A DNA stretch of 64,000 nucleotides from a plasmid: the sequence record NZ_CP120951.1. One strand, 5' to 3'. A program made the translations under genes and the position numbers. How positions within the stretch are numbered: position 1 is the stretch's first letter; each line of letters begins with the position of its first letter. Positions 9,517 to 35,826 of this stretch are shown piece by piece. The notes beneath the pieces were generated by a model. It saw nothing but the letters and a program-made list of their open reading frames with translations, did not search any database and was not told where the DNA came from.

Positions 9517-10037
9517 TACGCACCTCCAGCTTCACGAGACATCTCACCTGGTTCGCTGAACGCCGCGAGATCTCTCGCGCTCGCTTCTTGCGCGATCCAA
9601 GTGCGTACCGCCTGGCGATGCTCGGCAATGAGACGTAGATCGCGCCGCACCAGCGGTCGGCCAAGCGCTGCGACTTGCTGGCGGTATTGCTCAACCGATT
9701 CGGCATCCAATGCGTCGCGCGCAAACACATCTCTCAGAACCGGCAGGTCGTCGGCCGCCATCGGCGACCACGCGGTGTTGGTGGACCACGGAGAGGCATC
9801 GCTCAGAATCGGTATCGCGAATACCACCAGCAGAAACATGACAAACCCACCGAGCACGCTCGACGTCTGGCCCCAGAGGACGCGACTTAGCACGCAAAGT
9901 TCGATCGCAGCGACCACGCCGCATGCACTGAACCACCACCTCAGTGCGCGGCGGCGTTCCGCATCGAGCTCGGCCTGCGTCGGCGGCGCACACAGCACGG
10001 GATGCAAATTCGTCCACTTGATTTCTTGTTCGCTCAT
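9516..10037 (-). CDS. hypothetical membrane protein downstream of virB11
   Basis: Internal Met MSEQEIKWTNLHPV... of ORF 9516..10292; TM segment GVVAAIELCVLSRVLW...FVMFLLVVFAIPIL; start overlaps virB11 stop (ATGA). Confidence 0.45.
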   Translation of the reverse strand: MSEQEIKWTNLHPVLCAPPTQAELDAERRRALRWWFSACGVVAAIELCVLSRVLWGQTSSVLGGFVMFLLVVFAIPILSDASPWSTNTAWSPMAADDLPVLRDVFARDALDAESVEQYRQQVAALGRPLVRRDLRLIAEHRQAVRTWIAQEASARDLAAFSEPGEMSREAGGA

Positions 10038-11206
10038 GCCAGACCTCGCAGTAATTTCCACTTGCCGACCGGATCGAAATACACTTCCTTCAGGCACTTG
10101 TTCTCCATGAACAGCACTACGTCGATCGTGCTCTTGACCTCGCGCAGGATGAATTCCCACGTCAGCGTCTGGCCGACCGGGCTTTGCTTCACCAGCGTCG
10201 CGATCCGTGCCAACGCCGAAATTGCGTCGTTCGCATGCACGGTCGTGATACCACCCTGGTGCCCGGTGTTGAGCAGCACGAGGTAGTCCCACGTTTCATC
10301 GCCGCGCAACTCGGCCAGGTACACGCGGTCGAATTTCATCCGCAGCGTCGCCTTCACGATCCGGCGCGCAGGCAGCGATTCGCTGAAGAACAGGTGCACG
10401 TGATTCGGCTGATTCGGCAACGGCACTTCGTGCGTGTCTTCGATCGTCGCGACCCGCGTCGTGGACGGCACGATGTCGGCCAGCGCTTTCATCAGGGTGG
10501 TTTTGCCCGAGCCGACGCCACCCACCAGCACGACGTTCATCCGGTGCAGCATCGCCAGCGTCAAGAATTGACCCATATCGCGCTGCGCGAGCGCGTCAAG
10601 CATGTCCAGCTCGAACCGCTGCAGCACAACGGCCGCCGGCGCCGCGAGTTGACGCCTCGAATCGACCACGTCCGACGAACTGTTCATGCTCAAATCGCCA
10701 AACGACGGCGCGTTCGGATTCGCCGACAGGAACGATGCGTCCTGTGTCCCGACGATCCGGAAGTCGTTCAGGAAATTTCCACGCGTCAGATCGCCCACCG
10801 ACAAACGCGTGGCGCTCGGGATCCGGATCGTCATCGATACCGTGTTCGGCTCGCACGCGGGCGGGATCACAATCTGGCCGCGCTCACCGTTCGGCAATCG
10901 CACCGGCTTTTCCGGATCGTCGACCGACAGCGGTGGCGTTACCTTGTTGTAGATCGCAAGCGCATTGGCGAGCTTCATCAGCGCGTCGAGCGACGCCCCC
11001 GGTAATTCGTGCTGTTGCCAACCGTTGCGCGTCTCAGTCCAGCCTTCACCCGGCCGGTTGATCGCGATCTCGGTGTTGCCCGTCAGTGCCCGTAGTTCGG
11101 CGATGCCCGCCGACTCCATCAGATTGCGGACCGTGACGCTGCTGTCGTAGGGCTCAACGCTTGACAAGTTCATAGACGCTCCCGAAATCGACGTCGCGCG
11201 CGACAA
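10034..11206 (-). CDS. virB11: VirB11/TrbB traffic ATPase
   Basis: Walker A VVLVGGVGSGKTTLMKALADIV; the rest follows the conserved order typical of VirB11. Confidence 0.9.
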   Translation of the reverse strand: MSRATSISGASMNLSSVEPYDSSVTVRNLMESAGIAELRALTGNTEIAINRPGEGWTETRNGWQQHELPGASLDALMKLANALAIYNKVTPPLSVDDPEKPVRLPNGERGQIVIPPACEPNTVSMTIRIPSATRLSVGDLTRGNFLNDFRIVGTQDASFLSANPNAPSFGDLSMNSSSDVVDSRRQLAAPAAVVLQRFELDMLDALAQRDMGQFLTLAMLHRMNVVLVGGVGSGKTTLMKALADIVPSTTRVATIEDTHEVPLPNQPNHVHLFFSESLPARRIVKATLRMKFDRVYLAELRGDETWDYLVLLNTGHQGGITTVHANDAISALARIATLVKQSPVGQTLTWEFILREVKSTIDVVLFMENKCLKEVYFDPVGKWKLLRGLA

Positions 11207-12461
11207 AGATGTTCACTGTCGACCCGTGGCGCGACGTTGCGGTCGGTGGAATGTTGATCGTGTTTTTCAGCGTGTCGGCCGCCAGCTGCTGGCTCTGCGA
11301 CGTCGTGTTCGAGAACTGGATCCGATTACCGTTGCCGCTCTGGGCCAGATTCGACAGCGCCTGGCCAACGTCGCCGATCACCGACAACATCAGTGCGCCC
11401 CGGAAACGCAGCCAGAAGTGCGTATCGACGTCCGCATCAATGCCTGTCGCACCGAGCGCGTTCGTCGCCGGCGAATCGAGATCGACCGTCACACCCGATG
11501 GCGTATCGATGCGGGTCCACACCACGAAAATGCTTCCCTGGCCCTCCAGCATCGCCTTGCGCTGCTCGCCGGTCGCTTCGCTACCGCGCTCGAGCAGCAG
11601 CGTCTTCCCATCGGCCGAATAAACGTCTTCTGACACGTGGCAGGTGGCGATTCCAGGATGTGTGGACACGATCTCGGTGAACTGCCCGCACGGGATCATT
11701 GAGCCTCGCTTGAGCAGCAAACTGAGGTTCGGCAGGAAACTGGCCTTGACCGGCGCGAGACGCGAGGGCGCGAGGCTGTCATCCAGGCCATCACGCGCGT
11801 ACTGGCGCACAGGAGCGTTCGCGGCTGAAGCGGCGGCCGATGCCTGCGTCAATGCAGCGAGCCCATCATCCGACTTGCCGAATTTCACGAGCACGTCGCC
11901 CGACAGGCGGGGGTCACCTGGCGCAGATGCAGCGACCGGGCCGCCGGTTGACGTTGTGGCCGTCGTCGTGCCGGTTGTTGCCGTCGCGCCATTGCCAGCG
12001 TTCTGTGTCCCGCGTGCACCTGACGGCTCGGGCAATGCCGCGGCCGCGGCTGACGCCGCCTCTGCCGCGCTAGCCGCTTGCGCCGCTTCGACGTGATTCT
12101 TGTTGCCTTGAAAATCAGGATCGGCCACAACTGTCTGAACCGGGGCATCGCGCTTGGAACGCTTGTGTTCTAGATACGCGTCACCAAAGCGCTTCGCAAA
12201 AATCGCGACGCTAACCGCGATCACGATCACGATCACAACGATCACGAAGATGATCCCGACGCCGCGCACGCTCGTGTTTCGCTTGCCTCGTGCCAGCCCC
12301 GGAATGCCGCGTGGGTCCATACCGGCCGGCGGCACGACTTCTGGCTCCGGCCTCTTCCGGGTGCTGGCCGTCTCCGGCGCCGATGACGTGCTCACGTCGC
12401 TCATCGCATTGACATCCGGGTCCATGCCAGAGTCTTCGTGCGCGTCAACCATGATTGCCAT
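11154..12461 (-). CDS. virB10: VirB10/TrbI
   Basis: N-terminal cytoplasmic part, single TM (IIFVIVVIVIVIAVSVAIF), Pro/Ala-rich linker and a beta-rich C-terminal domain. Internal start chosen just after the virB9 stop. Confidence 0.8.
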   Translation of the reverse strand: MAIMVDAHEDSGMDPDVNAMSDVSTSSAPETASTRKRPEPEVVPPAGMDPRGIPGLARGKRNTSVRGVGIIFVIVVIVIVIAVSVAIFAKRFGDAYLEHKRSKRDAPVQTVVADPDFQGNKNHVEAAQAASAAEAASAAAAALPEPSGARGTQNAGNGATATTGTTTATTSTGGPVAASAPGDPRLSGDVLVKFGKSDDGLAALTQASAAASAANAPVRQYARDGLDDSLAPSRLAPVKASFLPNLSLLLKRGSMIPCGQFTEIVSTHPGIATCHVSEDVYSADGKTLLLERGSEATGEQRKAMLEGQGSIFVVWTRIDTPSGVTVDLDSPATNALGATGIDADVDTHFWLRFRGALMLSVIGDVGQALSNLAQSGNGNRIQFSNTTSQSQQLAADTLKNTINIPPTATSRHGSTVNIFVARDVDFGSVYELVKR

Positions 12462-13317
12462 CCTTCGTAATACGCACCCAGCCGGGCACCGTCGTGCCTG
12501 TCCGGTTGAACGACCCATCAGGCGAATACGCGTTGTTGCGGACAGCCATCACCGTCTTGCCCAGACGCAGCACGAACCCGGTCGCCATACCCTCGATCAC
12601 GATCGTGTCGCCATCAACATGCCGCTTGGGTGCCGCTTCCGTGCCGTCTGCCTGGATCTCGTAGATCTCCGGCACCCTGCGCGACGTGTCGTACTGGAAA
12701 TACGTAAATCGGCCGTCGTCCCAAACCGCTGTTGGCGCGATGGCCACATCGCCCTTCATGTCGTAATCGTCGTTGCGCCGTTCGGATGTGTCCGCACCCG
12801 CCTGCTCGATCGCCAGCGCCTTATCGGCCTTTGCCTTCGCGGCCTGCTCCGCCTTCGCGCGCGTGTCCGGGTAATCGAATGACAACGACCAGATCGCCGC
12901 CTCGTTGCGGGCAGCGGCATCGAACTGGAATACGTAGCGCCGCTTGTTGGTTACGATCAGCACGTTCGTGTTCGGCTTCTTCTTGCTCGGCTTGAACATG
13001 AACCAATTCGCCTTACCGCCAACCGACCACCCCTCCGATTCCCCGGAACCGAGCCCTCCGCTCTTGTCGTCGACGATCTCGTCCGCCTCGAACTGGACCA
13101 CAAAGGCCTCACCAATCCGGTAAGGAATCCGGTACGCGGTCGTCGCGTCGTACTCGGCGCAGCGCACGTGTTCGTCCGATGCACAAGGGCCCGGCGTGAT
13201 GGCGGACCAGGCCGACGAGCTCACGAATGCAGCCGCGAGCGTCGCCACCACAAGCAGGGGGCTGCGCGCCGACCGACATGCGGCATGTCTCCCGCCGAGA
13301 ATTTGGCCGCTCATCAT
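12445..13317 (-). CDS. virB9: VirB9/TrbG
   Basis: Signal peptide; typical VirB9 size and position between VirB8 and VirB10. Confidence 0.8.
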   Translation of the reverse strand: MMSGQILGGRHAACRSARSPLLVVATLAAAFVSSSAWSAITPGPCASDEHVRCAEYDATTAYRIPYRIGEAFVVQFEADEIVDDKSGGLGSGESEGWSVGGKANWFMFKPSKKKPNTNVLIVTNKRRYVFQFDAAARNEAAIWSLSFDYPDTRAKAEQAAKAKADKALAIEQAGADTSERRNDDYDMKGDVAIAPTAVWDDGRFTYFQYDTSRRVPEIYEIQADGTEAAPKRHVDGDTIVIEGMATGFVLRLGKTVMAVRNNAYSPDGSFNRTGTTVPGWVRITKDGNHG

Positions 13318-14222
13318 GCACCTCCCTTCTGACCCGGCAGCGGCGGTATCGCCGGCGTCGAGTCCGTGCGCGTCCAGTCCCGATCGACCGTGTAGCTCGT
13401 GACGCGAAAGCCGGTCGGATCCCGCTCGAGCTCCTCGCCCGATTCAGGCAAGTTGTCGTGGCGGTATGAAATCGTCGCCACCCAGTACTCGCTCTTCGGC
13501 TCGTTCAACGCGTTCCTCGGGTTCTGAACGGTCGCCAGCGGGATTAGCGTTTTCGAGAAAAACACCTGAGCAGTCGACCCGACGAACGTGATCGCCCCCA
13601 CCTTCGCGACGATCCGAAACTGGTTCTTCAGCACTTTCTGTGGTGAGTCGGGGCGGTCGTAGAAAGCGACGTAGATCTCCTTTTCCTTGTCCGCCGACAT
13701 CAACTTGACGGTGTCGTACATATCCTGAAGCGTTTCCCAGTCGTAACCCTCGCGCATCGTCACGTACCGGCGCAGATCCGCACGGTCCTGGATTTGCCCG
13801 AACGGCATTTCGCCGTCGCGCACGACTCCGATCACGTTCGTCGTTCCGTTCGTGTCATTGGTACGGATCAACGCCGGTGGACTTGGCCTCTTTAGTTGTA
13901 CTAAGGTGGCACCACCTAAAAAACCCGCCAAACCGAGCACACCTCCACCAATCGCAACCCGAATCGCGAACTGCGTCAGCTTCGCGCGTTCTTCCTGTTT
14001 CGATTGCTCGAATTCCAGCGCTCGATCCAGATACCAGCGCGCCTCGGCCGACAAGCTGGATTGCGCCTGCTTAGCCTCTTCTTCGCTAGTACGCGCCGGC
14101 GCGCCGACAGGCGCGGTTGCCTGTCGCGCCGGCAACGGCTTGCGCACCCCGCCACCCACGATTCGCGCGAGTCCGCGAGGTGTCGCACCGGTGCCAGCCG
14201 ATGAACGTTTCAATCCAAACAT
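13314..14222 (-). CDS. virB8: VirB8
   Basis: Internal Met MFGLKRSS...; N-terminal TM (VAIGGGVLGLAGFLGGATLV) followed by an NTF2-like periplasmic domain; start overlaps virB7 stop (TAATG). Confidence 0.75.
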   Translation of the reverse strand: MFGLKRSSAGTGATPRGLARIVGGGVRKPLPARQATAPVGAPARTSEEEAKQAQSSLSAEARWYLDRALEFEQSKQEERAKLTQFAIRVAIGGGVLGLAGFLGGATLVQLKRPSPPALIRTNDTNGTTNVIGVVRDGEMPFGQIQDRADLRRYVTMREGYDWETLQDMYDTVKLMSADKEKEIYVAFYDRPDSPQKVLKNQFRIVAKVGAITFVGSTAQVFFSKTLIPLATVQNPRNALNEPKSEYWVATISYRHDNLPESGEELERDPTGFRVTSYTVDRDWTRTDSTPAIPPLPGQKGGA

Positions 14223-14362
14223 TAACTTTCTCCTTCCACGGCCGGCACGCAGTTCACCGGCTCCCACGCACCTTTTGGCGACGGCAGCTCGTGCGACGAC
14301 GCACAGCCACCCAGTACGCCGGCAGACACGACAATCAGCAGACGGGCTATCCATTGACGCAT
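14222..14362 (-). CDS. virB7: VirB7-like small lipoprotein
   Basis: 46-aa MRQWIARLLIVVSAGVLGGCASSHELPSPKGAWEPVNCVPAVEGES with a lipobox LGGC; GGAG RBS; canonical position upstream of virB8. Confidence 0.6.
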   Translation of the reverse strand: MRQWIARLLIVVSAGVLGGCASSHELPSPKGAWEPVNCVPAVEGES

Positions 14363-14375
14363 GACCGACTCCGTA

Positions 14376-14735
14376 TCACTTAGCTTCCACCCGAACGTTC
14401 TCGTCACGCCGGAATTGCACATGCTGCGTTTTCGGGTCATAGCTGATACTGATAGCGCCAATACCCATATTGATCTGCAGCATGCCGCTCACGAGCGTCG
14501 CCGGAACGCGACTCGAAGCAGCAGTCAAGTCACACTGATTTTTTGTGTCGAACCGGCAGCTGGTGACGATGAATCCATCTTGACCGCGTTCGATCACGAG
14601 ATCGGCGCCGTATCGTTCATCCGGATGCAACTGCTTCCACCGACCGACGAATTCCTCTCCCTGTCGGGGCTGACAGCCCGTCACCGCGGCCGCTGCGGCC
14701 AACACCACGACCAATCCGAAAACGTGTTGTTTCAT
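14376..14735 (-). CDS. small lipoprotein, candidate entry-exclusion (Eex/TrbK-like) protein
   Basis: MKQHVFGLVVVLAAAAAVTGCQP... with a lipobox; strong GGAGGG RBS; located between virB6 and virB7 as eex is in pKM101-type operons. The function is inferred from position only. Confidence 0.5.
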   Translation of the reverse strand: MKQHVFGLVVVLAAAAAVTGCQPRQGEEFVGRWKQLHPDERYGADLVIERGQDGFIVTSCRFDTKNQCDLTAASSRVPATLVSGMLQINMGIGAISISYDPKTQHVQFRRDENVRVEAK

Positions 14736-14752
14736 CTTGCCCTCCAGTTGTT

Positions 14753-15691
14753 CTATGCTTTTGCCGCGCCGATTGAGCCACCCGAGCGGCCACCGCCACC
14801 CAGGCCGCCCAATTTCTTCGCCGCAGCCGCCACGCCGCGCGCGGCGCCACTCAAATTCCCGACCATCGATGAGATGCCGACGCCCCCAGCCAGCTGCGAG
14901 GCAAGCGACGGCAGATTCAGCGACACGATGATGAACACGATGCCGCTCGCCCAGATCTTCGCGATCGTCACCCAAGTCAGCATGTAATCGCTCGCGGTGA
15001 AGCTCTTGGGAAGATGGCTTGTCGCGTAGTTGACCTCGACGGCGCCGGCCGCAGCGAACAACGCAACCAAAATGCCGTAGTTCACACACTGCCCGACCCA
15101 CGCATCAAAGAATCGACGCGTCGGCGGAAACAGTGCGCACGCGATGAACATCGGCCCAAGCGCGAGCAGCAGGCCCAGCGCAAACTTCGCGAGAATGATG
15201 AACGCGCACGCGATACCCAGGAAAATCGTTCCAACAAACAACAGCGCGAACGAAAGCGAGATGAGTTCGATCCACACCCCGACCTCGAAGATGCCCGGAT
15301 TCATCTGCTTGAAGCCGTTCTGTATCGCCGTTACATATAGATTCAACAGGTTGTCGAGTGCCGACATGCCGGAGTTACCGTGCGTGATAGCCTTCGCGAT
15401 ATCGTCCCCGAATCCATTGAAGAACGGCACGACATACTGGCTGTAGTACTGGATGTTCATCCCACATACGAGCACGACCAGCCAGCCGCAGGCTTTCAGG
15501 AGGAAATCGACGATCGGCATCTCCTCCTGCCCGCGCATGTACGAAACCATCACAAGCAGCACGTAGATGCCAAAGCCGGCCGAGACAAGAGGCGAGATCA
15601 TCGAGATGATCTGCGACGAGCCGCTGTTGATGGTTTGCAGGATGGATTCGTCGAACCCCTGCTCCATCGTAGTAAAAACGTCGATTGCCAT
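14753..15691 (-). CDS. virB6: VirB6/TrbL polytopic membrane protein
   Basis: Multiple TM helices; AGGTGG RBS before the ATG at 15691. Confidence 0.8.
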   Translation of the reverse strand: MAIDVFTTMEQGFDESILQTINSGSSQIISMISPLVSAGFGIYVLLVMVSYMRGQEEMPIVDFLLKACGWLVVLVCGMNIQYYSQYVVPFFNGFGDDIAKAITHGNSGMSALDNLLNLYVTAIQNGFKQMNPGIFEVGVWIELISLSFALLFVGTIFLGIACAFIILAKFALGLLLALGPMFIACALFPPTRRFFDAWVGQCVNYGILVALFAAAGAVEVNYATSHLPKSFTASDYMLTWVTIAKIWASGIVFIIVSLNLPSLASQLAGGVGISSMVGNLSGAARGVAAAAKKLGGLGGGGRSGGSIGAAKA

Positions 15692-28671: not shown

Positions 28672-30359
28672 GGTGCAAGCTCCTCGAAGGTCGGCAGGCG
28701 TTCGTCGTTTCGGGCATCAACGCTAAGCTGAGACTGCGCCGCATTCGGATCGACGCGACCGGCCAGCACGTTCGCGACCGCATACGCCAGCATCGAGTAA
28801 TCCGTATCCGGTCGAGCGCGGTGCCGGCGCTTCACCTCATCGAGCGGCAACGTCCGCAGGTCCGACATCAACGCGACATCCGTTTCGATGATTTCAGCGG
28901 CGACCACCCGCCCGACTGTCCCCAGTCCATCGCAGTGCTCGCAACCGGGCCCGCGCACATGGACGTTCAGCGTGTCGCCCCAGGTATTGAGCGCGCGCAG
29001 CACTTCGTCGGGCACGGCATCGTCCGCGGCGTCGACGAGCGGCACGCGGCAGTGTTCGCACAGCCGCGGCAGCAGCCGCATGCCGATCACGGCGATCACC
29101 TTCTCCGGGTTGCACGTATTGCGGCGCGACAACCGTTCCGGGTCCATGTCCTCGAGGCGCTCGAAGAAGTAGTACGGGTCGATGACGTGCAGCGTGGTCA
29201 GCACAAGACGGCCTGTCAGCGCTGCCTCAAGTGCCGTATGTGCTTCCTCCGGCGCACGCAGCTCGCTAACCAGCAGCATGTTCGGATCCATGCGCAGCGT
29301 CTCGCGCAGCAGATCCATGAAGGAGTGCACCCCAACGACCAACTGAACGTCCCATTCCTTCTCGAACTCGGGCGGATCTTCCATCGCGATCTGACGACGT
29401 TCCGGAAAGCGCTGGGCGATATAGCGCTCCATATGGAAAATCGCCTGCGTCTTGCCGCTACCCACCGGCCCCGTCAATCCCACCAGTCCGTTAGGGCGGT
29501 GCGAGATGCGCCGCATCCGTTCGACCTGCGCGGGCGCGAACCCTTTCCACGCGGGATCGTTCTCCGGTTGTTCGGGACGAGTCGGCGCTCTGAGCCGCAA
29601 CTCCCGGATCGCATCCCGACGCGACTTGTTCGGCACCGCGTCCGGACGACGTTGCAACCGGGCCACGAGGAATCCGCCGCCGTGTGTAATCGGCACGGAC
29701 GGCCCGCGAATAATCCGAACTGTCGACAGCGCCGTACCCACGAGCGTCTCACCATCGATCTGTGCGTCCTGGAAGTCCAGCGGCTTCAGCTCGGGCGGCT
29801 TGTTCGTCGCGAGCCCCTGATAAATCGCGCCGATCAGCCGCCGACCTTCGTCAGCGTGCATCGAGAACGCGTCTGACGTGTGCAGATCGCCGTGGATCCG
29901 CACCTGCACGTCCGTATGCCGACGACGCACCAAAATATGTATGTCGCTGGCGCCAGCGGCTGCGGCCAGTGACAACAGCAACAGCGCCCTAGCCTGCGTG
30001 GCCTGCATCGGATCGTCGCGCCGCGCAATCGCATGCTGACCACGCAGCCGCTCAAGTGCATCGACCGTGACCGAGTCGACGGCGTAACCGATCTTCAGCT
30101 CATCGAGGCGCTTCAACCACGTCCTCACGGCCGCCGAACTCTTGACGCGATGGTCGATGTAGATCATCGCCTTGACGTCAGCATCACCTGCGTTGTCCGA
30201 CATCGCAACAACGACACTCGACTGCAGATGCTCCGGCACGTCGATTCGATCGGGGCGCGCGCCGATCACCGGCACCATGCTTACTGGAGACGACGCAGAG
30301 GCGTCAGGCGCAACCAGCGCCATCGCATCCGAAACGATCAGCGTCCGCGGCGACTTCAT
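28668..30359 (-). CDS. pilQ: PilQ-like assembly ATPase (GspE/PilB family)
   Basis: Walker A GLTGPVGSGKTQAIF, Asp box and His box (LVLTTLHV), and a tetracysteine motif CEHCRVP...GCEHCDGLG; internal start MKSPRTLIV overlaps the pilO-like stop (ATGA). Confidence 0.85.
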   Translation of the reverse strand: MKSPRTLIVSDAMALVAPDASASSPVSMVPVIGARPDRIDVPEHLQSSVVVAMSDNAGDADVKAMIYIDHRVKSSAAVRTWLKRLDELKIGYAVDSVTVDALERLRGQHAIARRDDPMQATQARALLLLSLAAAAGASDIHILVRRRHTDVQVRIHGDLHTSDAFSMHADEGRRLIGAIYQGLATNKPPELKPLDFQDAQIDGETLVGTALSTVRIIRGPSVPITHGGGFLVARLQRRPDAVPNKSRRDAIRELRLRAPTRPEQPENDPAWKGFAPAQVERMRRISHRPNGLVGLTGPVGSGKTQAIFHMERYIAQRFPERRQIAMEDPPEFEKEWDVQLVVGVHSFMDLLRETLRMDPNMLLVSELRAPEEAHTALEAALTGRLVLTTLHVIDPYYFFERLEDMDPERLSRRNTCNPEKVIAVIGMRLLPRLCEHCRVPLVDAADDAVPDEVLRALNTWGDTLNVHVRGPGCEHCDGLGTVGRVVAAEIIETDVALMSDLRTLPLDEVKRRHRARPDTDYSMLAYAVANVLAGRVDPNAAQSQLSVDARNDERLPTFEELAP

Positions 30360-31624
30360 GCCTTCGCTCCCGCCGGTACCGGCAATGGTCGCGCGACTGC
30401 GGGAGCGGCCGGCAACTTCGTCCACGCATACAGCGTGCCCTGTGCACTCCACTCGCCCTTGATAACGTCGTACACGACCGCGGCAAGCCGCAAGCCGGGT
30501 GTCGCATCGAGATCTGCGCTGTATCGCATCCAAGGCGGTGCCACGAAAGTAAAAGCGACACCACGTGTTTGCCACGGCAGCACATCGACGTCGCGCGTGT
30601 TGCCATTCGCGTCGGGCTTCGGCGGCGGATCCAGCGTGAGCGGGACGGCACGCGTTTGCGAAAACGTCAGAATCGTGCGGCGTGCGAGATCGGCAAGTAC
30701 GGCTGGCGCCGACGACGGCGACCAGGTCATCGCTTGCGTCAGCGACTCCTGCGAATGATCGGGATCCGTCAGCACACCTGGCGCGTCAAGTGCAGTACCG
30801 CCAGCACGCGTCCAGCTCACCGTCAGCGCGAGCATCTCGCCCTGCTGCTCGCAGCGCCAGTTCGCGATCGTCCACCCGTCGCGTGCGAGTGCTTGAGCAT
30901 GCCACGCGCTCGCGCAGGCACTCAGCAGTGCCGAAGGCGCCGGCAGCTTCGTCCACGGCGGAATCGCCGCGTCGGCCTCGCGCTTCGCACGTCGGGCGTC
31001 TGCTTGCCGCTGCAATTCGGCGAGACGCTGCTCCTCCTGTTGATGCGCCAACCACAAAGCGCCCCCGACGCCAACCACTGCGATTGCCAACACCGCAGAT
31101 AGCACCCAGACGATCTGCGGCACCGATGCCTGCAGGTCGCGTAATCCGCGCTCAGGCGTCGCGAGCCCGACGATTTCCGCGAGGTGCGCGACCGTCCCAT
31201 CGTGTTCGTGCCAGCTTTCTTGCGCCCGCAGCGCATCGCGCGCGGCGATTACATCGCCGCGATCGCCGAAATGATCGCCACCAGGAACGATTTCGCCGTC
31301 GCGAACGGCAATCAACCAGTAGGCGTCGTCGGTCAGCTTGAACACACCCATCCACGGCGACGGATACTGCTCGGCCGCAAGGCTTGCGAGTGCCCGGATG
31401 CGGCCCACTCCCTTTGTGCCTGGCGGCAGTTCGCCGTAGCCGGCCTGGTAGACGCCGGTCGCCGTGTGACGCACGACGCCAAAGCGGCCGAGCCGTCGAG
31501 CGCGTTCACGCAGCGCGGCAGGTTTCGGTTTGACAGGCTCGTGCTCCCATGTGAGGCCGAGCGCGTAGCGCGCGGTCGATTCGGGGAGCGTCACGATCGT
31601 GAGCATGGTCAGAACCTCACCCAC
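30356..31624 (-). CDS. pilO: PilO-like bitopic pilus biogenesis protein
   Basis: 422 aa; central TM (IVWVLSAVLAIAVVGVGGALWL); size and position match R64 PilO. Confidence 0.45.
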   Translation of the reverse strand: MGEVLTMLTIVTLPESTARYALGLTWEHEPVKPKPAALRERARRLGRFGVVRHTATGVYQAGYGELPPGTKGVGRIRALASLAAEQYPSPWMGVFKLTDDAYWLIAVRDGEIVPGGDHFGDRGDVIAARDALRAQESWHEHDGTVAHLAEIVGLATPERGLRDLQASVPQIVWVLSAVLAIAVVGVGGALWLAHQQEEQRLAELQRQADARRAKREADAAIPPWTKLPAPSALLSACASAWHAQALARDGWTIANWRCEQQGEMLALTVSWTRAGGTALDAPGVLTDPDHSQESLTQAMTWSPSSAPAVLADLARRTILTFSQTRAVPLTLDPPPKPDANGNTRDVDVLPWQTRGVAFTFVAPPWMRYSADLDATPGLRLAAVVYDVIKGEWSAQGTLYAWTKLPAAPAVARPLPVPAGAKA

Positions 31625-32211
31625 CGCACACGGCCACCGCGCGCCAGCTGAACGCCGTTGCCCTCGATGCGTGCAACTTTCCAGCCATCATCGAGCGTGT
31701 CGCCGACTCGCACATCACGCGCAACACCACTGATCACCAGCGTCGCCATCGAGCGGCCGTCATACGAACCCGTGCCGGCCAACGTCATGTCGCTGATTGC
31801 CGACGTCCGAATGCCGATCGGCGGCGTACCAGGAATGGGCGAGGCCGTGGCCGGTAGCGGGTTGTTCAGCGCGAGAGGCATGCCGCTCGACGCCGGATTT
31901 TTCGCCTTGTCGATCGCCGCCTCGACCTCGGCGATCTCTTTTTTGACGCGCAGCACTGAAAGGCGCGACTGGAGCGCAGCGAGCTCGTCGCTGTCGGTCG
32001 TGCTCGCCACGGCTGCAGGTGCCGATGCAGGAATTGCGACAGCTACAGTGCTGCTGGCTTGCGACGCCGGTGCCGCGCCCGCGGGAACTGGGAGCGCCGG
32101 CGCACCGTTCGCGCGCGGATGGACTGCGAGCAGCAACGCGAACGCAAGCAGTGAGCCCGCCAGCACGGGCACGCGCACGGGTGACGGATGGGTACGCAGT
32201 CGGATATTCAT
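31609..32211 (-). CDS. pilP: PilP-like periplasmic protein
   Basis: Internal start MNIRLRTH... with a signal peptide; C-terminal GDTLDDGWKVARIEGNGVQLARGGRVRWVRF resembles the PilP family. Confidence 0.45.
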   Translation of the reverse strand: MNIRLRTHPSPVRVPVLAGSLLAFALLLAVHPRANGAPALPVPAGAAPASQASSTVAVAIPASAPAAVASTTDSDELAALQSRLSVLRVKKEIAEVEAAIDKAKNPASSGMPLALNNPLPATASPIPGTPPIGIRTSAISDMTLAGTGSYDGRSMATLVISGVARDVRVGDTLDDGWKVARIEGNGVQLARGGRVRWVRF

Positions 32212-32219: not shown

Positions 32220-33869
32220 TCACAGCAGTCGCGCGGTGATCACGATCGCCAGCAGCGTGCGCTGCTGGCGCGCGTCGACGCCGCCGCCCAGGATGGGATT
32301 GAAGGGCGAACCCACGCCGTTGTCCTGCGTGCTGTTGTCCGAACGCTGCATGCCAACCAGCACGAGCGATTCGCCGGGTTTCAGCGGCACGATCTGCTGC
32401 AGGTCGTAATTCTTCAGATGGGGCATCTGCAAGCACGACTGCGTGCTGTTCGAATTGCAGCCGGCCGGCAACGACACCATCTCGATCAAGCGACTCAACG
32501 TGAGCGAAAAATCCATCACGATCGTGCCGTTGACGAGTTTGGGCAGAAACTGACCGGTAAACCCGACCGGCTGGAACTGGCCAGTCGCGGACGACGATGA
32601 CCCGACGTTTGCGGCGAGCGTGCTTTGCGTCTGCGGCAGATACGGGATCTGCTCGCCGTCCTGCAGCGTGACCTTCTTGCCGTTTTGCGTGACGCCCGCG
32701 TTCGACAGCAGCGTGGTGACGTTACCGAGACTCGACAGCGCCTTGACTGCCCCCTTGGTGCCCGAGAACGGGCCAGACAGGATGTTTGCGCCGAAGCTCA
32801 TGCCCGAGCCGCCACCGCTGATCGCGGGGACCGCCGCGCCGGTGATACCGACCGACGTGTGGCCGGTCGCGCTCTTGTAGCCGAGCGCGAGATCCAGGCC
32901 ATAGTTCTCGTCATGGTCCGTCTGAACCGAATACAGGTGGATGTCCACCGCGATCGTCTTGCTGTACATCGCGGTCAGCGATTTCATCCAGCCGTCGACC
33001 GCGTCGCATTGCGCGGGCGTGCCCGTCACGACCAGCACCCCGAGGTCGGGATCCGCCGTCACCGTCGCGCCGCTACCGGCGATCGCCGAGGCAGTCGTCT
33101 GCAATTGCTTCCACGGTGCGATCGTGACTTTCAGCGTAGAGAGCTGCGAATTCCCGCCAGACGTACCGCCCGAATTACCGCTTCCGCTCGATCCGCTCGC
33201 GCCGTTCGACGAATTCGAGCTGGTCGTGATCGAGCTTTCCATTCCCGACGTTTCCGAGAGTGCCGGCAACGGGAACACGCGAGTTTCGCGCTTGAAGAAT
33301 GTGATCACGCCATCGCGATAGCGATGCCAGACACCGAAGCGAGCCTGCTGCTGATCGAGGAACCCCTTGAACGTGCCCTTGTAGGTCAGCACGCGCGCCG
33401 AGTCGAGGTTAACCGCGCCCACTGCTGTCGGCAGGATCGGTTGGCCAGCGGGGATGCCAGGCACGCCCGGCGGCAGCGGCGACGACATCGCACCGCCAGT
33501 CGGCGCCGAAAACGACGTTGGCACCGACGCCGAGCTGGTGGCAGACGAATCGATCTCGGTGCGCACGCCCGTCGTGCGCGTGATCCACTGAGCAACCTCC
33601 GCAAGCGAACCGGCCGGATACGTATAGGACACCGCCTTGTCGTAAATTGCCGGCTGCGGCTTTCCTGCTACGATCTGTTCACCCATCAGCCACGCGCGCT
33701 TATGCATCTTGACGACGGGGCGACTCGTCGGCGCTTGAGCGATCTGAGCACGAGCCTGATCGGTCACTGCTTGCTGTTCGTTACGAATGTCGCGAATCGC
33801 GCATGCGGTCAGCGTCAAGGCCAGTGCCGGCGCCAAGGCGAATGCGGGATGCAGGAAGGAAGCTCGCAT
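32220..33869 (-). CDS. pilN: secretin lipoprotein (PilN-like)
   Basis: Lipobox LTLTAC; Gly/Ser-rich linker; C-terminal secretin signature PILGGGV...QRTLLAIVITARLL; TAAATG junction with the upstream gene. Confidence 0.8.
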   Translation of the reverse strand: MRASFLHPAFALAPALALTLTACAIRDIRNEQQAVTDQARAQIAQAPTSRPVVKMHKRAWLMGEQIVAGKPQPAIYDKAVSYTYPAGSLAEVAQWITRTTGVRTEIDSSATSSASVPTSFSAPTGGAMSSPLPPGVPGIPAGQPILPTAVGAVNLDSARVLTYKGTFKGFLDQQQARFGVWHRYRDGVITFFKRETRVFPLPALSETSGMESSITTSSNSSNGASGSSGSGNSGGTSGGNSQLSTLKVTIAPWKQLQTTASAIAGSGATVTADPDLGVLVVTGTPAQCDAVDGWMKSLTAMYSKTIAVDIHLYSVQTDHDENYGLDLALGYKSATGHTSVGITGAAVPAISGGGSGMSFGANILSGPFSGTKGAVKALSSLGNVTTLLSNAGVTQNGKKVTLQDGEQIPYLPQTQSTLAANVGSSSSATGQFQPVGFTGQFLPKLVNGTIVMDFSLTLSRLIEMVSLPAGCNSNSTQSCLQMPHLKNYDLQQIVPLKPGESLVLVGMQRSDNSTQDNGVGSPFNPILGGGVDARQQRTLLAIVITARLL

Positions 33870-34448
33870 TTAGTCGTTCCCCGCTTCGTGGACCACGAAT
33901 GTCCGGTTATCCAAATAGCCATCGCCTCGAACGTCAGCGCCATTGGCTGCCAAGTCCTCGAGGACCTTCGTCGCGGCCTCCGGAAAATCACCGGCGTAAT
34001 CCGCGTCGTTCGGCACGATCCAGTCAGGGCCCACGTTCCAGGACAGCGACCACCCGTCCGATTTCGCCCACTCACGCAGTTGAGATTCGAGCGACACTCC
34101 GCCGGTCAGGTGGTGGAGCGGCTTGGGCGGCGCATCGACGACTGGCGCCTCCACAACCGTTTCGGACGGCGACAGCGAAGCGGCTGGCGCGACATTGCTC
34201 GCCGCGTTCTGCGCGATAAGCGTGGCAGGCGAACCAGACGACAGCGGCGGAACCGCAGCAACCGTCAATGAGGGACTGGCCGACGCCGCGGGTGCCGGTG
34301 GGTTGTAGCGCGGCAGGTACGGTGCGAGATGTATTGCCGGCGAGTTCGACGTTGCCAGTTGGTCACCCGCGATCGCCGTCGCACTCGTCGCGAGTGCGGC
34401 ACCGATCACGAGCATGCCTCGCAACGTGCCATTAATGTGCGCGTGCAT
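33870..34448 (-). CDS. pilM: PilM-like periplasmic protein
   Basis: Signal peptide; Pro/Ala-rich linker; conserved C-terminal domain (LREWAKSDGWSLSWNVGPDWIVPNDADY) resembling a TcpQ/PilL-type domain. Confidence 0.4.
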   Translation of the reverse strand: MHAHINGTLRGMLVIGAALATSATAIAGDQLATSNSPAIHLAPYLPRYNPPAPAASASPSLTVAAVPPLSSGSPATLIAQNAASNVAPAASLSPSETVVEAPVVDAPPKPLHHLTGGVSLESQLREWAKSDGWSLSWNVGPDWIVPNDADYAGDFPEAATKVLEDLAANGADVRGDGYLDNRTFVVHEAGND

Positions 34449-34992
34449 CGCTCGCCCCCTTCGGCACCTGGGCCAGATTCGTCGACGCGGCTCCGAACAG
34501 CGGCTTGCCGTTCAGATCGTTCGCGTCTGTGACGATCCAGGTCTTGCCGTCAGCCACCTGCAAAATCGTGAGTGGATAGCCCGCATCGGAAACGGCGGCC
34601 AAGATCGACTTCATCGCGGCTGCCAGATCACCCGCGACATGACTGTCGGCGGTCACCGGCACCTGCAGCGACGTCATCCAGCGCATCGTCACGCCAGTCA
34701 TACTGGCCCAGCGGGCGAGCGAAACAGACAACGTCTTGTCGTCCGAGCGCAGATCGAAGCCCGGCGCGTTCGGAGCGATGGCGGCAGCAAGCGCGGTAGA
34801 AGTCGGCGCGCGCGGCTGCGTTGTGGCCGGCGGAAGCGTGCACACTCGTTGATAGCGCCCGGTGGTCTGACGCGCAACCGGCGCCCAATCTGCCGAACCA
34901 TCAACTCCAGCAGCACAGCCGGACAGGACAATCATGGCGAACGCGGCAACACCGCCAGCGAACGGCATGCGCGAAAATCGTGGCCGTTTCAT
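34432..34992 (-). CDS. pilL: PilL-like lipoprotein
   Basis: Internal start MKRPRFSRMPFAGGVAAFAMIVLSGCAAG (lipobox) with a GGAG RBS; the C-terminal domain again resembles a TcpQ/PilL type. Confidence 0.45.
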   Translation of the reverse strand: MKRPRFSRMPFAGGVAAFAMIVLSGCAAGVDGSADWAPVARQTTGRYQRVCTLPPATTQPRAPTSTALAAAIAPNAPGFDLRSDDKTLSVSLARWASMTGVTMRWMTSLQVPVTADSHVAGDLAAAMKSILAAVSDAGYPLTILQVADGKTWIVTDANDLNGKPLFGAASTNLAQVPKGASDARAH

Positions 34993-35271
34993 CGAATCTC
35001 CGGGATATCGGTAACGACTGGCGATCGCAACCTTCAGAAAGCGCAAGTAGCGCGCGGTGTAGAAAACGCCTGACGCAAAACCACCGCGTCCGGCAAAGCC
35101 GCCGCCATGCCCTAAAGTGAGGGGAGTCGGGATAGCGCGGCACGAGGTACGGTAATTACGCCGGCTGGCGCCTGCCAAATGCGTCGTGGCATCGCGCGAC
35201 GCGCCCATGTGTTTAGCAATACTAATAAACACACAATGACCGGCCGACGTGAGTGATTTCATCGGATGTCC

Positions 35272-35826
35272 CTATTCCGCCCCGGCTACCGCCAAGCGGC
35301 TCGTTTCATAGACCGCTGCCATCGCTTCCGGTATCGAAACAGGAACGACCGGCTGCGTTGCCGTCACGCCAGGTGTGATTCGGAAGAGTTCGCGATAGAC
35401 GCGTCGGGCGTACTGGACGCGCTTGTGCGGCGACGCCGCGTTGTATGCACCAACAGCGTTCCAGGTCAGCCCGAGGCGGGAGATGTTTTGCGAGAGGATC
35501 CACGCGCCAACGTAAGCGTTCGTGCACGCGTCGAGCAACGCCGTACGATCGATGCCGTAGCGAGCGAGCGTCGGCAGCCAACTAGAGTTGATCTGCATGA
35601 GCCCGATATCTTCGGACCCGTTGCGATTAACGTTGCGCGCGGACGGATTGAAACCCGACTCGACAGAGGCAATCGCTCTGACAAGATGCGGGTTCAGATG
35701 CTGGTAAGCAGCAGCGGCGTCAATACAATCGGCGCGCGCCGTTACTATCAGTAACGAATTCAGGGCAAACACGCAGCCCCAAAGGATGGCAGCACGCGAC
35801 CGATCACGTACAATACCGAAAGCCAT
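35272..35826 (-). CDS. lytic transglycosylase (SLT domain; PilT-of-R64/IagB-like)
   Basis: SLT active-site motifs AIASVESGFNPSARNVNRNGSEDIGLMQIN...AYVGAWIL; signal peptide; first gene of the minus-strand super-operon. Confidence 0.85.
   Translation of the reverse strand: MAFGIVRDRSRAAILWGCVFALNSLLIVTARADCIDAAAAYQHLNPHLVRAIASVESGFNPSARNVNRNGSEDIGLMQINSSWLPTLARYGIDRTALLDACTNAYVGAWILSQNISRLGLTWNAVGAYNAASPHKRVQYARRVYRELFRITPGVTATQPVVPVSIPEAMAAVYETSRLAVAGAE

What the first reader, a model, noticed from the sequence alone, without database searches (positions are those of the whole stretch)
10034..35826. One continuous super-operon fuses a VirB/VirD4 (type IVa) secretion system with a complete R64/PAPI-type thin-pilus (type IVb pilus) gene set
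About 26 kb on the minus strand, from the lytic transglycosylase (35826) to virB11 (10034), is packed gene to gene with frequent ATGA/TAATG coupling. Thin pili of this kind are known with I-type (Dot/Icm-like) or GI-type (PAPI/ICEclc) transfer systems. A physical and probably transcriptional fusion with a VirB1 to VirB11 apparatus is unusual. It implies liquid-mating adhesion provided by a T4bP serving a T4aSS channel.
Basis: partly seen in the sequence, partly recalled or inferred. Interest (0 to 1): 0.8.

Follow-up and report, generated by a model that had tools for sequence, protein, structure and literature searches.

The report
Thin-pilus genes joined to VirB conjugation genes
A Burkholderia plasmid carries the genes for an R64-like adhesive thin pilus and a VirB/VirD4 DNA-transfer channel in one head-to-tail gene array; this is real and missing from current reviews, but dozens of sequenced Burkholderia, Cupriavidus and Ralstonia plasmids share it, so it is a new member of an under-described family.

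Summary
From 35826 to 10034 the minus strand carries 29 back-to-back genes: an R64-like type IVb pilus module, four junction genes, then VirB1-VirB11. The array runs on to VirD4 and a primase-like protein, about 35 kb in all. "Complete R64 set" is only partly right: there is no prepilin peptidase PilU, no Rci/shufflon and no PilI/J/K, but there is an extra PilT-like ATPase.

The combination is not unique. The same pil lineage lies next to MPF_T systems in at least four different arrangements on Burkholderia, Caballeronia, Ralstonia, Cupriavidus (pHG1, sequenced 2003) and Acidovorax replicons. In Gluconobacter pGOX1 it sits inside a Dot/Icm system. The pMOL28/pHG1/pRALTA pil locus beside trb/tra genes was already noted in 2010, with its function left open. 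Current reviews still link thin pili only to MPF_I and MPF_G.

A single transcript is plausible but unproven. I found a conserved hairpin after pilS, a probable 279-nt gap, and an IS630 at the junction in a relative. A role in mating is inferred, not shown.

Side observation: the pilins of this lineage have no leader peptide.

The parts
36454..37005 (+). Xre-type HTH regulator, divergent from the array. The AT-rich 157-nt spacer 36297-36453 is the candidate promoter region.
   Evidence: Pfam HTH_19/HTH_31. The sequence shows TTATAA-17 nt-TATACT upstream of 36296. The gene is conserved in L001 and L046.
35946..36296 (-). 116-aa hypothetical protein, probable first gene of the array. It is followed by a conserved hairpin at 35891-35924.
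   Evidence: ORF list; no Pfam hit. Inverted repeat of 14 nt, 93% complementary, kept with compensatory changes in MS455.
35272..35826 (-). Lytic transglycosylase, counterpart of R64 PilT.
   Evidence: Pfam SLT 76 bits. 35% identity to IncI1 PilT, E 3.5e-25.
34432..35262 (-). TcpQ-domain protein 1. The real start is probably ATG 34992, which gives a lipoprotein (signal ...MIVLSGC) in the position of PilL. That start leaves a 279-nt gap after the SLT gene.
   Evidence: Pfam TcpQ 42 bits. Lipobox and RBS at 34992. MS455 is annotated with the short form. Alignment.
33870..34448 (-). TcpQ-domain protein 2.
   Evidence: Pfam TcpQ 64 bits.
32220..33869 (-). PilN-type T4bP secretin.
   Evidence: Pfam Secretin and Secretin_N_2. 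The best NCBIfam hit is TIGR02520 at 212 bits, below its 288-bit equivalog cut-off. 27% identity over the full length to IncI1 PilN, E 3e-38.
31609..32211 (-). PilP.
   Evidence: NCBIfam TIGR03021 42.9 bits, above the 34.65 cut-off.
30356..31606 (-). PilO2.
   Evidence: Pfam PAP_PilO 107 bits.
28668..30359 (-). PilQ-type assembly ATPase.
   Evidence: Pfam T2SSE 121 bits. 25% identity to IncI1 PilQ, E 1e-26.
27571..28671 (-). PilR platform protein.
   Evidence: Pfam T2SSF. 24% identity to IncI1 PilR, E 1e-19.
27024..27518 (-). PilS major pilin. It has no leader peptide: the ORF starts MGDLLATWYGKLLVLL.
   Evidence: Pfam PilS 40.8 bits. An in-frame stop lies 5 codons upstream of the ATG, and an AGGAG RBS is present.
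26977..27015 (-). GC-rich hairpin directly after pilS with no U-tract. Candidate attenuator or mRNA stabiliser.
   Evidence: MFE -32.7 kcal/mol, z -2.69. Hairpins of different sequence occupy the same place in L046, L042 and L004.
25925..26953 (-). Second, PilT-sized (342 aa) T2SSE ATPase. Candidate retraction ATPase.
   Evidence: Pfam T2SSE. The best NCBIfam hit is the PilT/PilU subfamily, below its cut-off. The best solved relatives are PilT retraction ATPases, E about 1e-11.
25454..25924 (-). 156-aa membrane protein in the position of PilM. It is conserved in nearly all related loci.
   Evidence: tblastn across loci. hhalign to IncI1 and pGOX1 PilM is not significant, E 0.01-0.04.
25145..25457 (-). 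104-aa membrane ORF. In the window it is frameshifted near its 3' end by loss of 2 bp in a (CG)n run, so the frame runs on to 24369.
23840..25141 (-). PilV tip adhesin/minor pilin. It has no leader peptide and there is a single copy with no shufflon.
   Evidence: Pfam Shufflon_N 101 bits. 29% identity to IncI1 PilV. N-terminus. No Rci homologue.
22997..23821 (-). 274-aa Cys/Trp-rich protein with a signal peptide. Function unknown.
   Evidence: No family hit. 68% identical in B. gladioli, and next to pilV in many loci.
21751..22908 (-). CAP-domain lipoprotein with a C-terminal Ig-like domain. It is preceded by an 88-nt gap.
   Evidence: Pfam CAP 32 bits. Lipobox LSAC. A CAP gene flanks pilV in most related loci, on either strand.
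21431..21739 (-). DUF3717 protein.
   Evidence: Pfam DUF3717 27.5 bits.
20808..21434 (-). 208-aa protein with a signal peptide. Function unknown.
   Evidence: No family hit. N-terminus.
20098..20805 (-). VirB1 lytic transglycosylase.
   Evidence: Pfam SLT 38 bits.
19778..20101 (-). VirB2-like pilin, assigned by position and topology only.
   Evidence: Signal peptide plus two hydrophobic helices, located between virB1 and virB3. No family hit.
19322..19771 (-). VirB3.
   Evidence: Pfam VirB3 33 bits.
16858..19269 (-). VirB4 ATPase.
   Evidence: Pfam CagE_TrbE_VirB 94 bits.
16436..16861 (-). 141-aa ORF with a signal peptide. It is absent from the MS455 relative. A role in entry exclusion is only a guess.
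15721..16392 (-). VirB5.
   Evidence: Pfam T4SS (PF07996) 127 bits.
14753..15691 (-). VirB6.
   Evidence: Pfam TrbL 135 bits.
14376..14735 (-). 119-aa lipoprotein in the VirB7 position.
   Evidence: Lipobox ...AVTGC. No family hit.
13314..14354 (-). VirB8. The annotated start in relatives corresponds to 14222. An in-frame upstream ATG at 14354 would add a lipobox N-terminus (MRQWIARLLIVVSAGVLGGC).
   Evidence: Pfam VirB8 123 bits. Gap sequence.
12445..13317 (-). VirB9.
   Evidence: Pfam CagX 157 bits.
11154..12452 (-). VirB10.
   Evidence: Pfam TrbI 168 bits.
10034..11173 (-). VirB11 ATPase.
   Evidence: Pfam T2SSE 90 bits.
7797..10037 (-). Four overlapping small genes: 173, 220 and 137 aa of unknown function, and a PLD-family nuclease (7797-8447).
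   Evidence: Pfam PLDc_2 86 bits; the others have no hit. Overlaps of 1-4 nt.
5501..7720 (-). VirD4 coupling protein.
   Evidence: Pfam T4SS-DNA_transf 312 bits and TraG-D_C.
865..5508 (-). 1547-aa Toprim/DUF5710/LPD7 protein, a primase-like large polyvalent protein.
   Evidence: Pfam.

Best explanation
The window holds about half of a roughly 70.8-kb Burkholderia contaminans-type plasmid, and the finding is that plasmid's transfer region.

What it encodes: an R64-like type IVb pilus module is laid head-to-tail with a VirB1-VirB11 (MPF_T) channel. The pilus module comprises a secretin, PilO2/PilP, an assembly ATPase, a platform protein, the major pilin PilS, the tip adhesin PilV, a lytic transglycosylase and an extra PilT-like ATPase. 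After the VirB genes come the VirD4 coupling protein and a primase-like protein.

Most likely mechanism (inferred): the VirB system builds the DNA-transfer channel and its own VirB2/VirB5 pilus. The T4bP is a second, long adhesive filament whose PilV tip binds recipient cells and stabilises mating pairs, as in R64 and PAPI-1. The PilT-like ATPase may add retraction that pulls the partners together.

Expression (inferred): transcription probably starts in the AT-rich region upstream of 36296 next to a divergent HTH regulator. Internal elements then modulate it: the hairpin after pilS and possibly promoters in the 279-nt and 88-nt gaps. A single uniform transcript is therefore not expected.

What is shown and what is not: gene content, order, spacing and conservation are shown. 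The role in mating, co-transcription and retraction are inferred.
For: Gene identities.

Tight co-directional packing.

The same architecture occurs in complete plasmids of B. aenigmatica, Burkholderia sp. MS455, B. gladioli and B. vietnamiensis. In B. contaminans NZ_CP090645 the PilN and VirB4 hits lie 13 kb apart, as in the window.

The same pil lineage is linked to T4SS genes in other permutations:
- Ralstonia: pilV-CAP-ssb-SLT-virB11-B2..B10 (L014 and L034).
- Cupriavidus sp. locus L026: pilV followed directly by virB5..virD4.
- Propionivibrio and Polynucleobacter: virB11-pil(-virD4).
- pHG1: trbF-G-I-SLT-pil on one strand, with trbB..traD divergent.
- Acidovorax: a trb operon divergent from pil.
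- Gluconobacter pGOX1: pil embedded among dot/icm genes.

Pil and CAP proteins are far more conserved than the adjacent T4SS between the window and B. gladioli: CAP 70%, h274 68%, PilV 53% and PilN 52%, against VirB4 24%, VirB9 26% and VirB10 31%. This implies the pilus module has been kept beside exchanged T4SS modules.

A DNA-transfer role for the T4SS is supported by VirD4 and the primase-like protein. StbB and a NikA/MobC relaxosome protein are encoded on the same backbone just outside the window.

A 99.95-100% identical plasmid has lost exactly 9283-30743 (pilQ to virB11), which shows the block is a dispensable accessory of the replicon.
Against: - There is no experimental or RNA evidence.
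- No relaxase was recognised by Pfam. MOB-suite calls the close relatives non-mobilizable.
- Some loci of the same pil lineage on large contigs show no T4SS within 10 kb (L006-L009, L012, L032, L033).
- Burkholderia has a conserved chromosomal R64-like cluster (Tfp7) thought to serve biofilm formation, so the pilus need not serve conjugation.
- Against a single operon: MS455 carries an IS630 between pilV and the downstream genes. In several relatives CAP or the T4SS is on the other strand.
- The pilins lack a class-III leader and no prepilin peptidase is encoded, so assembly may not follow the R64 model.
Confidence: 0.6

Rival explanations
1. The pilus module is cargo for surface or host adhesion and biofilm formation, like Burkholderia Tfp7 or the Salmonella SPI-7 pil genes. 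It simply sits beside the transfer genes and has no role in conjugation.
For: A conserved chromosomal R64-like cluster exists in Burkholderia and has been proposed to serve biofilm formation. Several loci of this lineage have no T4SS genes within 10 kb. [quoted passage not shown]
Against: The module is found beside or inside conjugative T4SS loci in at least five different gene orders, with three kinds of system (VirB-like, Trb-like, Dot/Icm-like). It is retained while the T4SS next to it diverges to 24-31% identity. That pattern is hard to explain without functional coupling.
Confidence: 0.2
2. The two modules are functionally linked but are separate transcription units. The pil genes, the CAP-DUF3717 junction genes and virB1-virD4 each have their own promoter, and collinearity in this plasmid is incidental.
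For: - Non-coding gaps of 279 nt (if TcpQ1 starts at 34992), 88 nt before CAP, and 70 nt with a conserved hairpin after pilS.
- An IS630 is tolerated between pilV and h274 in MS455.
- In pHG1, Acidovorax and many Cupriavidus loci the CAP gene or part of the T4SS is on the opposite strand.
Against: No sigma-70-like promoter or intrinsic terminator on the minus strand lies in any of these gaps, and the scan totals are at or below shuffle expectation. The pilV-h274 gap is 18 nt, CAP-DUF3717 is 11 nt, and DUF3717-h208-virB1-virB2 overlap or are 2 nt apart. The MS455 plasmid may simply be transfer-defective.
Confidence: 0.45
3. The VirB/VirD4 system is an effector-translocating or bacteria-killing T4SS rather than a conjugation machine, and the pilus provides contact with target cells.
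For: No relaxase domain is recognised. A PLD-family protein and several unknown small proteins lie between virB11 and virD4.
Against: The replicon is a plasmid. It encodes a NikA/MobC relaxosome protein followed by a large LPD7 protein, as well as StbB, a Toprim primase-like protein, an antirestriction protein and KorA/ParA/KorB-like genes. B. gladioli and pHG1 relatives are typed with MOBQ or MOBH/MOBP relaxases.
Confidence: 0.07

Closest known systems
Thin pilus of IncI1 plasmid R64 and relatives (pilI-pilV plus the rci shufflon), associated with an MPF_I (Dot/Icm-like) transfer system.
   Same: Homologues of PilN, PilO, PilP, PilQ, PilR, PilS, PilT (SLT) and PilV are present, at 22-35% identity. 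The pilus is encoded beside the conjugation genes of a plasmid, and PilV carries the Shufflon_N constant region.
   Different: - The partner system is MPF_T, not MPF_I.
- PilU peptidase, Rci/shufflon and PilI/J/K are absent.
- Gene order is N-P-O rather than N-O-P.
- Two TcpQ-domain proteins stand in place of PilL.
- There is an extra PilT-like ATPase.
- The pilins lack the class-III leader that R64 PilS and PilV have.
Transfer/pilus backbone of the pHG1 (Cupriavidus necator H16), pMOL28 and pRALTA megaplasmids.
   Same: Same pil lineage (PilN 44-45% identical) directly joined to MPF_T genes and followed by CAP-domain genes. The linkage of the 'pil locus' to trb/tra genes is described in PMC2864759.
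   Different: In pHG1 the T4SS is Trb-like and split. trbF-G-I-SLT and a VirB9-like gene run into the pil genes, while trbB..traD is divergent. There is no second ATPase, pilS is duplicated, and CAP is on the opposite strand. Window VirB4 is only about 22% identical.
Burkholderia gladioli ATCC 10248 plasmid 2, B. vietnamiensis p1_2003Ycf867, B. aenigmatica and MS455 plasmids.
   Same: Identical overall order: SLT-TcpQ-TcpQ-PilN-P-O2-Q-R-S-(ATPase)-PilV-h274-CAP-DUF3717-VirB3/4...VirB11.
   Different: The T4SS proteins of the B. gladioli and B. vietnamiensis plasmids are only 22-31% identical to the window's, while the pil and CAP proteins are 32-70% identical. MS455 has an IS630 at the junction and lacks the 141-aa ORF.
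PAPI-1 / ICE-type (MPF_G) conjugative type IVb pilus of Pseudomonas aeruginosa.
   Same: It is an R64-like pilus without its own prepilin peptidase that is used for conjugative transfer, and PilV recognises recipient LPS (for the literature statements).
   Different: The partner is MPF_G. According to PMC3984277 its pilin is processed by the host PilD, whereas the pilins here have no leader to process. I did not fetch a PAPI-1 sequence, so this comparison rests on the literature only.
Burkholderia pseudomallei Tfp7 (chromosomal R64-variant T4bP; PilO2Bp structure).
   Same: Gene order reported as PilV2-M2-S2-R2-Q2-P2-O2-N2-TcpQ2, with no PilU. That matches the order in the window.
   Different: It is chromosomal, conserved across Burkholderia, and has no reported link to a T4SS. 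Its sequences were not compared here.

Membership tests
R64-type type IVb (thin) pilus | PilN-family lipoprotein secretin. | tested here: met
   Pfam Secretin and Secretin_N_2 score above their cut-offs. There is a full-length 27% match to IncI1 PilN, E 3e-38. TIGR02520 is the best NCBIfam model but falls below its equivalog cut-off, 212 versus 288 bits.
R64-type type IVb (thin) pilus | PilO2 (PF06864) and PilP (TIGR03021) assembly proteins. | tested here: met
   PAP_PilO scores 107 bits against a 26.7 cut-off. TIGR03021 scores 42.9 against 34.65.
R64-type type IVb (thin) pilus | PilQ assembly ATPase and PilR platform protein. | tested here: met
   T2SSE 121 bits and T2SSF 60 bits. Matches to IncI1 PilQ and PilR at E 1e-26 and 1e-19.
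R64-type type IVb (thin) pilus | PilS-family major pilin and PilV adhesin with the Shufflon_N constant region. | tested here: met
   PF08805 40.8 bits. PF04917 101 bits.
R64-type type IVb (thin) pilus | Pilins made as prepilins with a class-III leader (G at -1, E at +5) and cleaved by an A24 peptidase (PilU or host PilD). | tested here: not met
   The PilS and PilV ORFs begin at the hydrophobic helix, with an in-frame stop 1-5 codons upstream. No A24 peptidase homologue is in the window or in the related loci. IncI1 and Pseudomonas controls show canonical leaders.
R64-type type IVb (thin) pilus | Shufflon: multiple invertible pilV 3' segments plus the Rci recombinase. | tested here: not met
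   There is a single pilV. tblastn finds no Rci hit in the window, or in any related locus except the IncI1 and Pseudomonas controls.
R64-type type IVb (thin) pilus | Required for mating in liquid but not on surfaces. | not testable with these tools
   This needs mating assays with pil mutants.
MPF_T (VirB/Trb-type) conjugative type IV secretion system | VirB4 ATPase together with VirB3, VirB6, VirB8, VirB9, VirB10 and VirB11, plus a VirD4-type coupling protein. | tested here: met
   All score above their Pfam cut-offs. MOB-suite types the 94%-identical plasmid as MPF_T.
MPF_T (VirB/Trb-type) conjugative type IV secretion system | Relaxase and oriT on the same element, making it self-transmissible. 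| tested here: inconclusive
   A NikA/MobC protein and an adjacent 817-aa LPD7 protein lie just outside the window on the identical backbone, but no relaxase domain is recognised. Close relatives are typed non-mobilizable.
Single operon (one transcription unit from SLT to virB11) | Co-directional genes without internal promoters or terminators, and one primary transcript. | tested here: inconclusive
   The genes are co-directional with a median gap of 1 nt. Consensus promoter and terminator scans are at chance level. There is a conserved hairpin after pilS and gaps of 279, 88 and 70 nt. The transcript itself is not testable here.

The most novel reading that the evidence does not exclude
The Burkholderiales/Acetobacteraceae branch of R64-like T4b pili may be a distinct kind of type IV filament in two respects:
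1. Its pilins (PilS, PilV) are made without any class-III leader. They carry a conserved N-terminus (M-[S/D/E]-[E/S]-I-L-G-...) and are assembled without a prepilin peptidase.
2. It has become a portable mating-adhesin module that plugs into VirB-like, Trb-like and Dot/Icm-like conjugation systems alike, with a PilT-like ATPase in some members.

Evidence:
- Upstream in-frame stops in more than 40 loci.
- 70 of 108 PilS-family cluster representatives match the strict leaderless motif, against about 25 with a canonical G|FxxxE leader.
- No A24 peptidase in any of these loci.
- One literature search found no description of this.
Probability: 0.3. Interest if true: 0.7.

Novelty: new member of a known kind. 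Interest (0 to 1): 0.45.

Why it matters
Textbook accounts and recent reviews tie conjugative type IVb thin pili to I-type and G-type transfer systems, and treat MPF_T plasmids as surface maters with short rigid pili.

This window, and the plasmid family it belongs to, show that in Burkholderia, Cupriavidus and Ralstonia a thin-pilus module is regularly joined to VirB/Trb-type systems. Those genera include cystic-fibrosis and plant pathogens and bioremediation strains. If the pilus works as in R64, these plasmids could mate efficiently in liquid and choose recipients through PilV. That bears on predicting plasmid spread in water, soil and airways.

The finding itself is not new sequence biology. 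The same layout has been public since pHG1, and the linkage was remarked on for pMOL28. Its value is as a well-preserved, compact (about 71 kb) member suited to experiments, with a natural 21.5-kb deletion derivative as a ready control.

The leaderless pilins are the feature most likely to repay further work.

Tried and rejected
- **Assembly artefact or chimera:** rejected. The arrangement is in three independent complete plasmids.
- **Tad or T2SS identity for the pil genes:** rejected by the profile hits.
- **Shufflon:** looked for Rci and multiple pilV segments and found none in the window. The + strand ORF 23000-23818 that mirrors h274 is a high-GC artefact.
- **h156 as PilM:** hhalign against IncI1 PilM and pGOX1 PilM gave E 0.01-0.04 and probability below 4%. 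NCBIfam gave nothing. It is left as "PilM position only".
- **Junction genes:** NCBIfam and Pfam searches of h274, h208, DUF3717, h141, h119 and the VirB2-like protein gave no useful names.
- **Promoter footprinting upstream of the array:** not informative. L001 is nearly identical and MS455 too diverged.
- **Word-indexed protein search with PilS:** returned only 4 near-identical proteins. The exhaustive representative search was needed.
- **Window VirB proteins as tblastn probes:** too divergent to detect T4SS genes in relatives, so a panel from pHG1, Ralstonia and B. gladioli was added.
- **Paper searches for T4bP with MPF_T:** only the pMOL28/pHG1 remark turned up. The pMOL28/pMOL30 paper PMC2168447 is not held. 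My recollection that the 2003 pHG1 paper mentions type IV pilus genes could not be checked.
- **Structure prediction:** not used, because the allowed alignments would have been too shallow.

Full report
**1. What is in the sequence**

The window is GC-rich, 60-65% over the region. A continuous chain of minus-strand ORFs runs from 36296 down to at least 452. Profile searches identify them as follows.

Pilus module:
- SLT lytic transglycosylase, 35272-35826
- two TcpQ-domain proteins
- PilN secretin
- PilP
- PilO2
- a PilQ-type T2SSE ATPase
- PilR (T2SSF)
- the PilS pilin
- a second, 342-aa T2SSE ATPase
- two small membrane ORFs
- PilV, with the Shufflon_N constant region

Junction genes:
- a 274-aa secreted protein
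- a CAP-domain lipoprotein
- a DUF3717 protein
- a 208-aa secreted protein

Secretion module and what follows:
- VirB1 (SLT), a VirB2-like protein, VirB3, VirB4 and a 141-aa ORF
- VirB5, VirB6, a 119-aa lipoprotein in the VirB7 position, VirB8, VirB9, VirB10 and VirB11
- four small overlapping genes, including a PLD-family nuclease
- VirD4
- a 1547-aa Toprim/DUF5710/LPD7 protein

I chose start codons by RBS and by the annotation of a 94%-identical plasmid. With those starts the 36 junctions have a median gap of 1 nt and 16 of them overlap.

**2. Where it comes from**

The 25-kb core is 93.8% identical over its full length to a B. aenigmatica plasmid, which MOB-suite types as MPF_T. It is 82% identical to a Burkholderia sp. 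MS455 plasmid.

The rest of the window is 99.9-100% identical to the 49-kb B. contaminans plasmid NZ_CP082810.1. That record equals the window with positions 9283-30743 deleted. The source plasmid is therefore about 70.8 kb, and the pilQ-to-virB11 block is dispensable for maintenance.

The backbone has KorA-like, ParA and KorB-like genes upstream of the array. It also carries StbB, a NikA/MobC protein and an unrecognised 817-aa LPD7 protein that may be the relaxase.

**3. How R64-like is the pilus module?**

Direct comparison with an IncI1 plasmid gave significant matches for:
- PilT (SLT), 35% identity
- PilN, 27%
- PilO, 22%
- PilQ, 25%
- PilR, 24%
- PilS, 29%
- PilV, 29%

PilP is recognised by NCBIfam. 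Nothing in the window matches PilU, Rci, PilI, PilK, PilL or PilM. The 156-aa ORF in the PilM position is not significantly similar to PilM.

The second ATPase is PilT-sized and its best solved relatives are PilT retraction ATPases. A similar second ATPase also occurs in a Pseudomonas MPF_I plasmid, so it is not unique to this system.

"Complete R64/PAPI set" is thus only partly right.

**4. Is the combination with a VirB system unusual?**

In the literature, yes. A 2025 review and the 2013 T4SS evolution paper link thin pili to MPF_I plasmids and to MPF_G (PAPI-1) only.

In sequence databases, no. tblastn with PilN finds 2789 PLSDB plasmids, mostly enterobacterial. It also finds a distinct set of 52 plasmids at E<1e-30 from Burkholderia, Cupriavidus, Ralstonia, Paraburkholderia, Caballeronia, Acidovorax and Acetobacteraceae.

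Every Burkholderiales plasmid of that set that I opened has T4SS genes next to the pil genes. I read all of these as VirB- or Trb-type; MOB-suite gives an MPF_T call for pHG1, R. insidiosa and B. aenigmatica and none for the others.
- **B. gladioli, B. vietnamiensis:** the window's order.
- **Ralstonia insidiosa:** pilV-CAP-ssb-SLT-virB11-virB2...virB10 on one strand.
- **pHG1:** trbF-G-I-SLT and a VirB9-like gene run directly into SLT-TcpQ-pilN...pilV, with trbB...traD divergent.
- **Acidovorax:** a trb operon divergent from pil.

In Gluconobacter pGOX1 the same lineage sits among dot/icm genes.

A scan of one genome per species with a PilV alignment gave 34 loci. All but one are from Burkholderiales; the exception is a Propionivibrio genome. 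Several carry further permutations, such as pilV-virB5...virD4 and virB11-pil-virD4. Some loci on large contigs show no T4SS within the 10-kb flanks.

Janssen et al. (2010) already named a "pil locus" beside the trb/tra genes on pMOL28, syntenic with pHG1 and pRALTA. They wrote that it is either not involved in conjugation or part of a conjugative system of its own kind.

**5. Evidence for functional coupling**

Between the window and the B. gladioli plasmid, identities are:

| Protein | Identity |
|---|---|
| CAP | 70% |
| h274 | 68% |
| PilV | 53% |
| PilN | 52% |
| VirB10 | 31% |
| VirB9 | 26% |
| VirB4 | 24% |

The order pil-h274-CAP-DUF3717-virB is nevertheless the same. The pilus/CAP module has therefore stayed beside T4SS modules that were exchanged or diverged much faster, and it is linked to VirB-like, Trb-like and Dot/Icm-like systems. 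This is the strongest, though indirect, argument that the pilus serves the transfer system and is not unrelated cargo.

**6. One operon?**

Consensus scans find no sigma-70-like promoter or intrinsic terminator on the minus strand in any intergenic gap, and totals are at chance level.

Several features argue against a simple uniform transcript:
- A GC-rich hairpin directly after pilS (z -2.7) recurs with different sequences in MS455, Acidovorax and B. gladioli. A hairpin in this position could attenuate transcription or stabilise the pilin message.
- TcpQ1 most likely starts at 34992, where a lipoprotein signal begins. That leaves 279 nt of partly conserved non-coding DNA after the SLT gene.
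- There is an 88-nt gap before the CAP gene.
- MS455 has an IS630 between pilV and h274.

The likely main promoter lies in the AT-rich spacer 36297-36453, shared with a divergent HTH regulator. Co-transcription of pil and virB remains an inference.

**7. Side observation bearing on "complete"**

PilS and PilV here, and in all related Burkholderiales loci and pGOX1, start directly with the hydrophobic helix. An in-frame stop lies a few codons upstream. The IncI1 and Pseudomonas homologues have canonical leaders ending in G, with E at +5.

No A24 peptidase gene is in any of these loci.

Among 108 PilS-family cluster representatives, 70 match a strict leaderless N-terminal motif and about 25 have canonical leaders. 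One literature search found no description of this.

The start codons are predictions, and processing by a host enzyme after the conserved Gly/Ala6 cannot be excluded.

**8. Verdict**

The finding is real and its gene assignments are essentially right. Its novelty is limited: it is a new, compact member of a plasmid family whose pil-T4SS linkage has been public since 2003 and was remarked on in 2010. That family is still absent from the current picture of conjugative thin pili and has never been tested. I therefore rate interest as moderate.

Noticed in passing
window 27518 (pilS start) and 25141 (pilV start); also L001-L038 and L041-L043.: The major pilin PilS and the adhesin PilV have no class-III leader peptide. 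The ORFs start at the hydrophobic helix (consensus MDGILGRIVA... and MDAILGYIVA...) with in-frame stops just upstream, and no prepilin peptidase is encoded nearby. 70 of 108 PilS-family representatives share a strict leaderless motif. IncI1 and Pseudomonas homologues have canonical leaders.
   Followed up: partly
window 9283-30743.: B. contaminans plasmid NZ_CP082810.1 (49,329 bp) is 99.95-100% identical to the window but lacks exactly this 21,461-bp stretch. The deletion joins a truncated pilO2 to the 220-aa ORF, so pilQ through virB11 are gone while VirD4, the primase-like gene and the relaxosome gene remain.
   Followed up: yes
window about 25150-25165.: The 104-aa membrane ORF upstream of pilV has lost 2 bp in a (CG)n run relative to the B. 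aenigmatica plasmid. Its stop is out of frame and the reading frame runs on over pilV to 24369. This could be a real slippage mutation or a sequencing error.
   Followed up: partly
window 21751-22908, and next to pilV in most of L002-L038.: A CAP/SCP-domain lipoprotein gene is almost always found beside pilV in this lineage, on either strand and sometimes duplicated. Nothing is known about its role. It may be a pilus-associated or pilus-dependent surface protein.
   Followed up: partly
L012 (Trinickia fusca) 10001-21053; L033; L032.: Instead of a shufflon, some relatives carry arrays of full-length pilV paralogues: eight tandem copies in L012 and inverted copies in L033. No Rci recombinase gene is detectable in the fetched flanks.
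   Followed up: no
L046 (Burkholderia sp. MS455 plasmid) 25448-26485.: An IS630-family transposase is inserted on the opposite strand exactly between pilV and the 274-aa gene, at the pil/T4SS junction. The same plasmid lacks the 141-aa ORF between virB4 and virB5.
   Followed up: no
window 14223-14375.: The 153-nt gap before the annotated virB8 start contains an in-frame ATG (14354) with its own RBS. It would give VirB8 a lipoprotein-type N-terminus (MRQWIARLLIVVSAGVLGGC). The preceding 119-aa gene is also a lipoprotein, in the VirB7 position.
   Followed up: no
window 35891-35924.: A 14-nt inverted repeat lies between the 116-aa gene and the SLT gene. It is retained with compensatory changes in the 82%-identical MS455 plasmid. 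It could be an operator, a processing site or a weak terminator.
   Followed up: partly
window 48019-51828.: A tyrosine recombinase with a DUF3701 domain lies next to a DUF6402 protein. This is part of a roughly 9-kb segment shared at about 84% identity with many other Burkholderia cepacia complex plasmids, so it is probably a mobile or recombining module.
   Followed up: no
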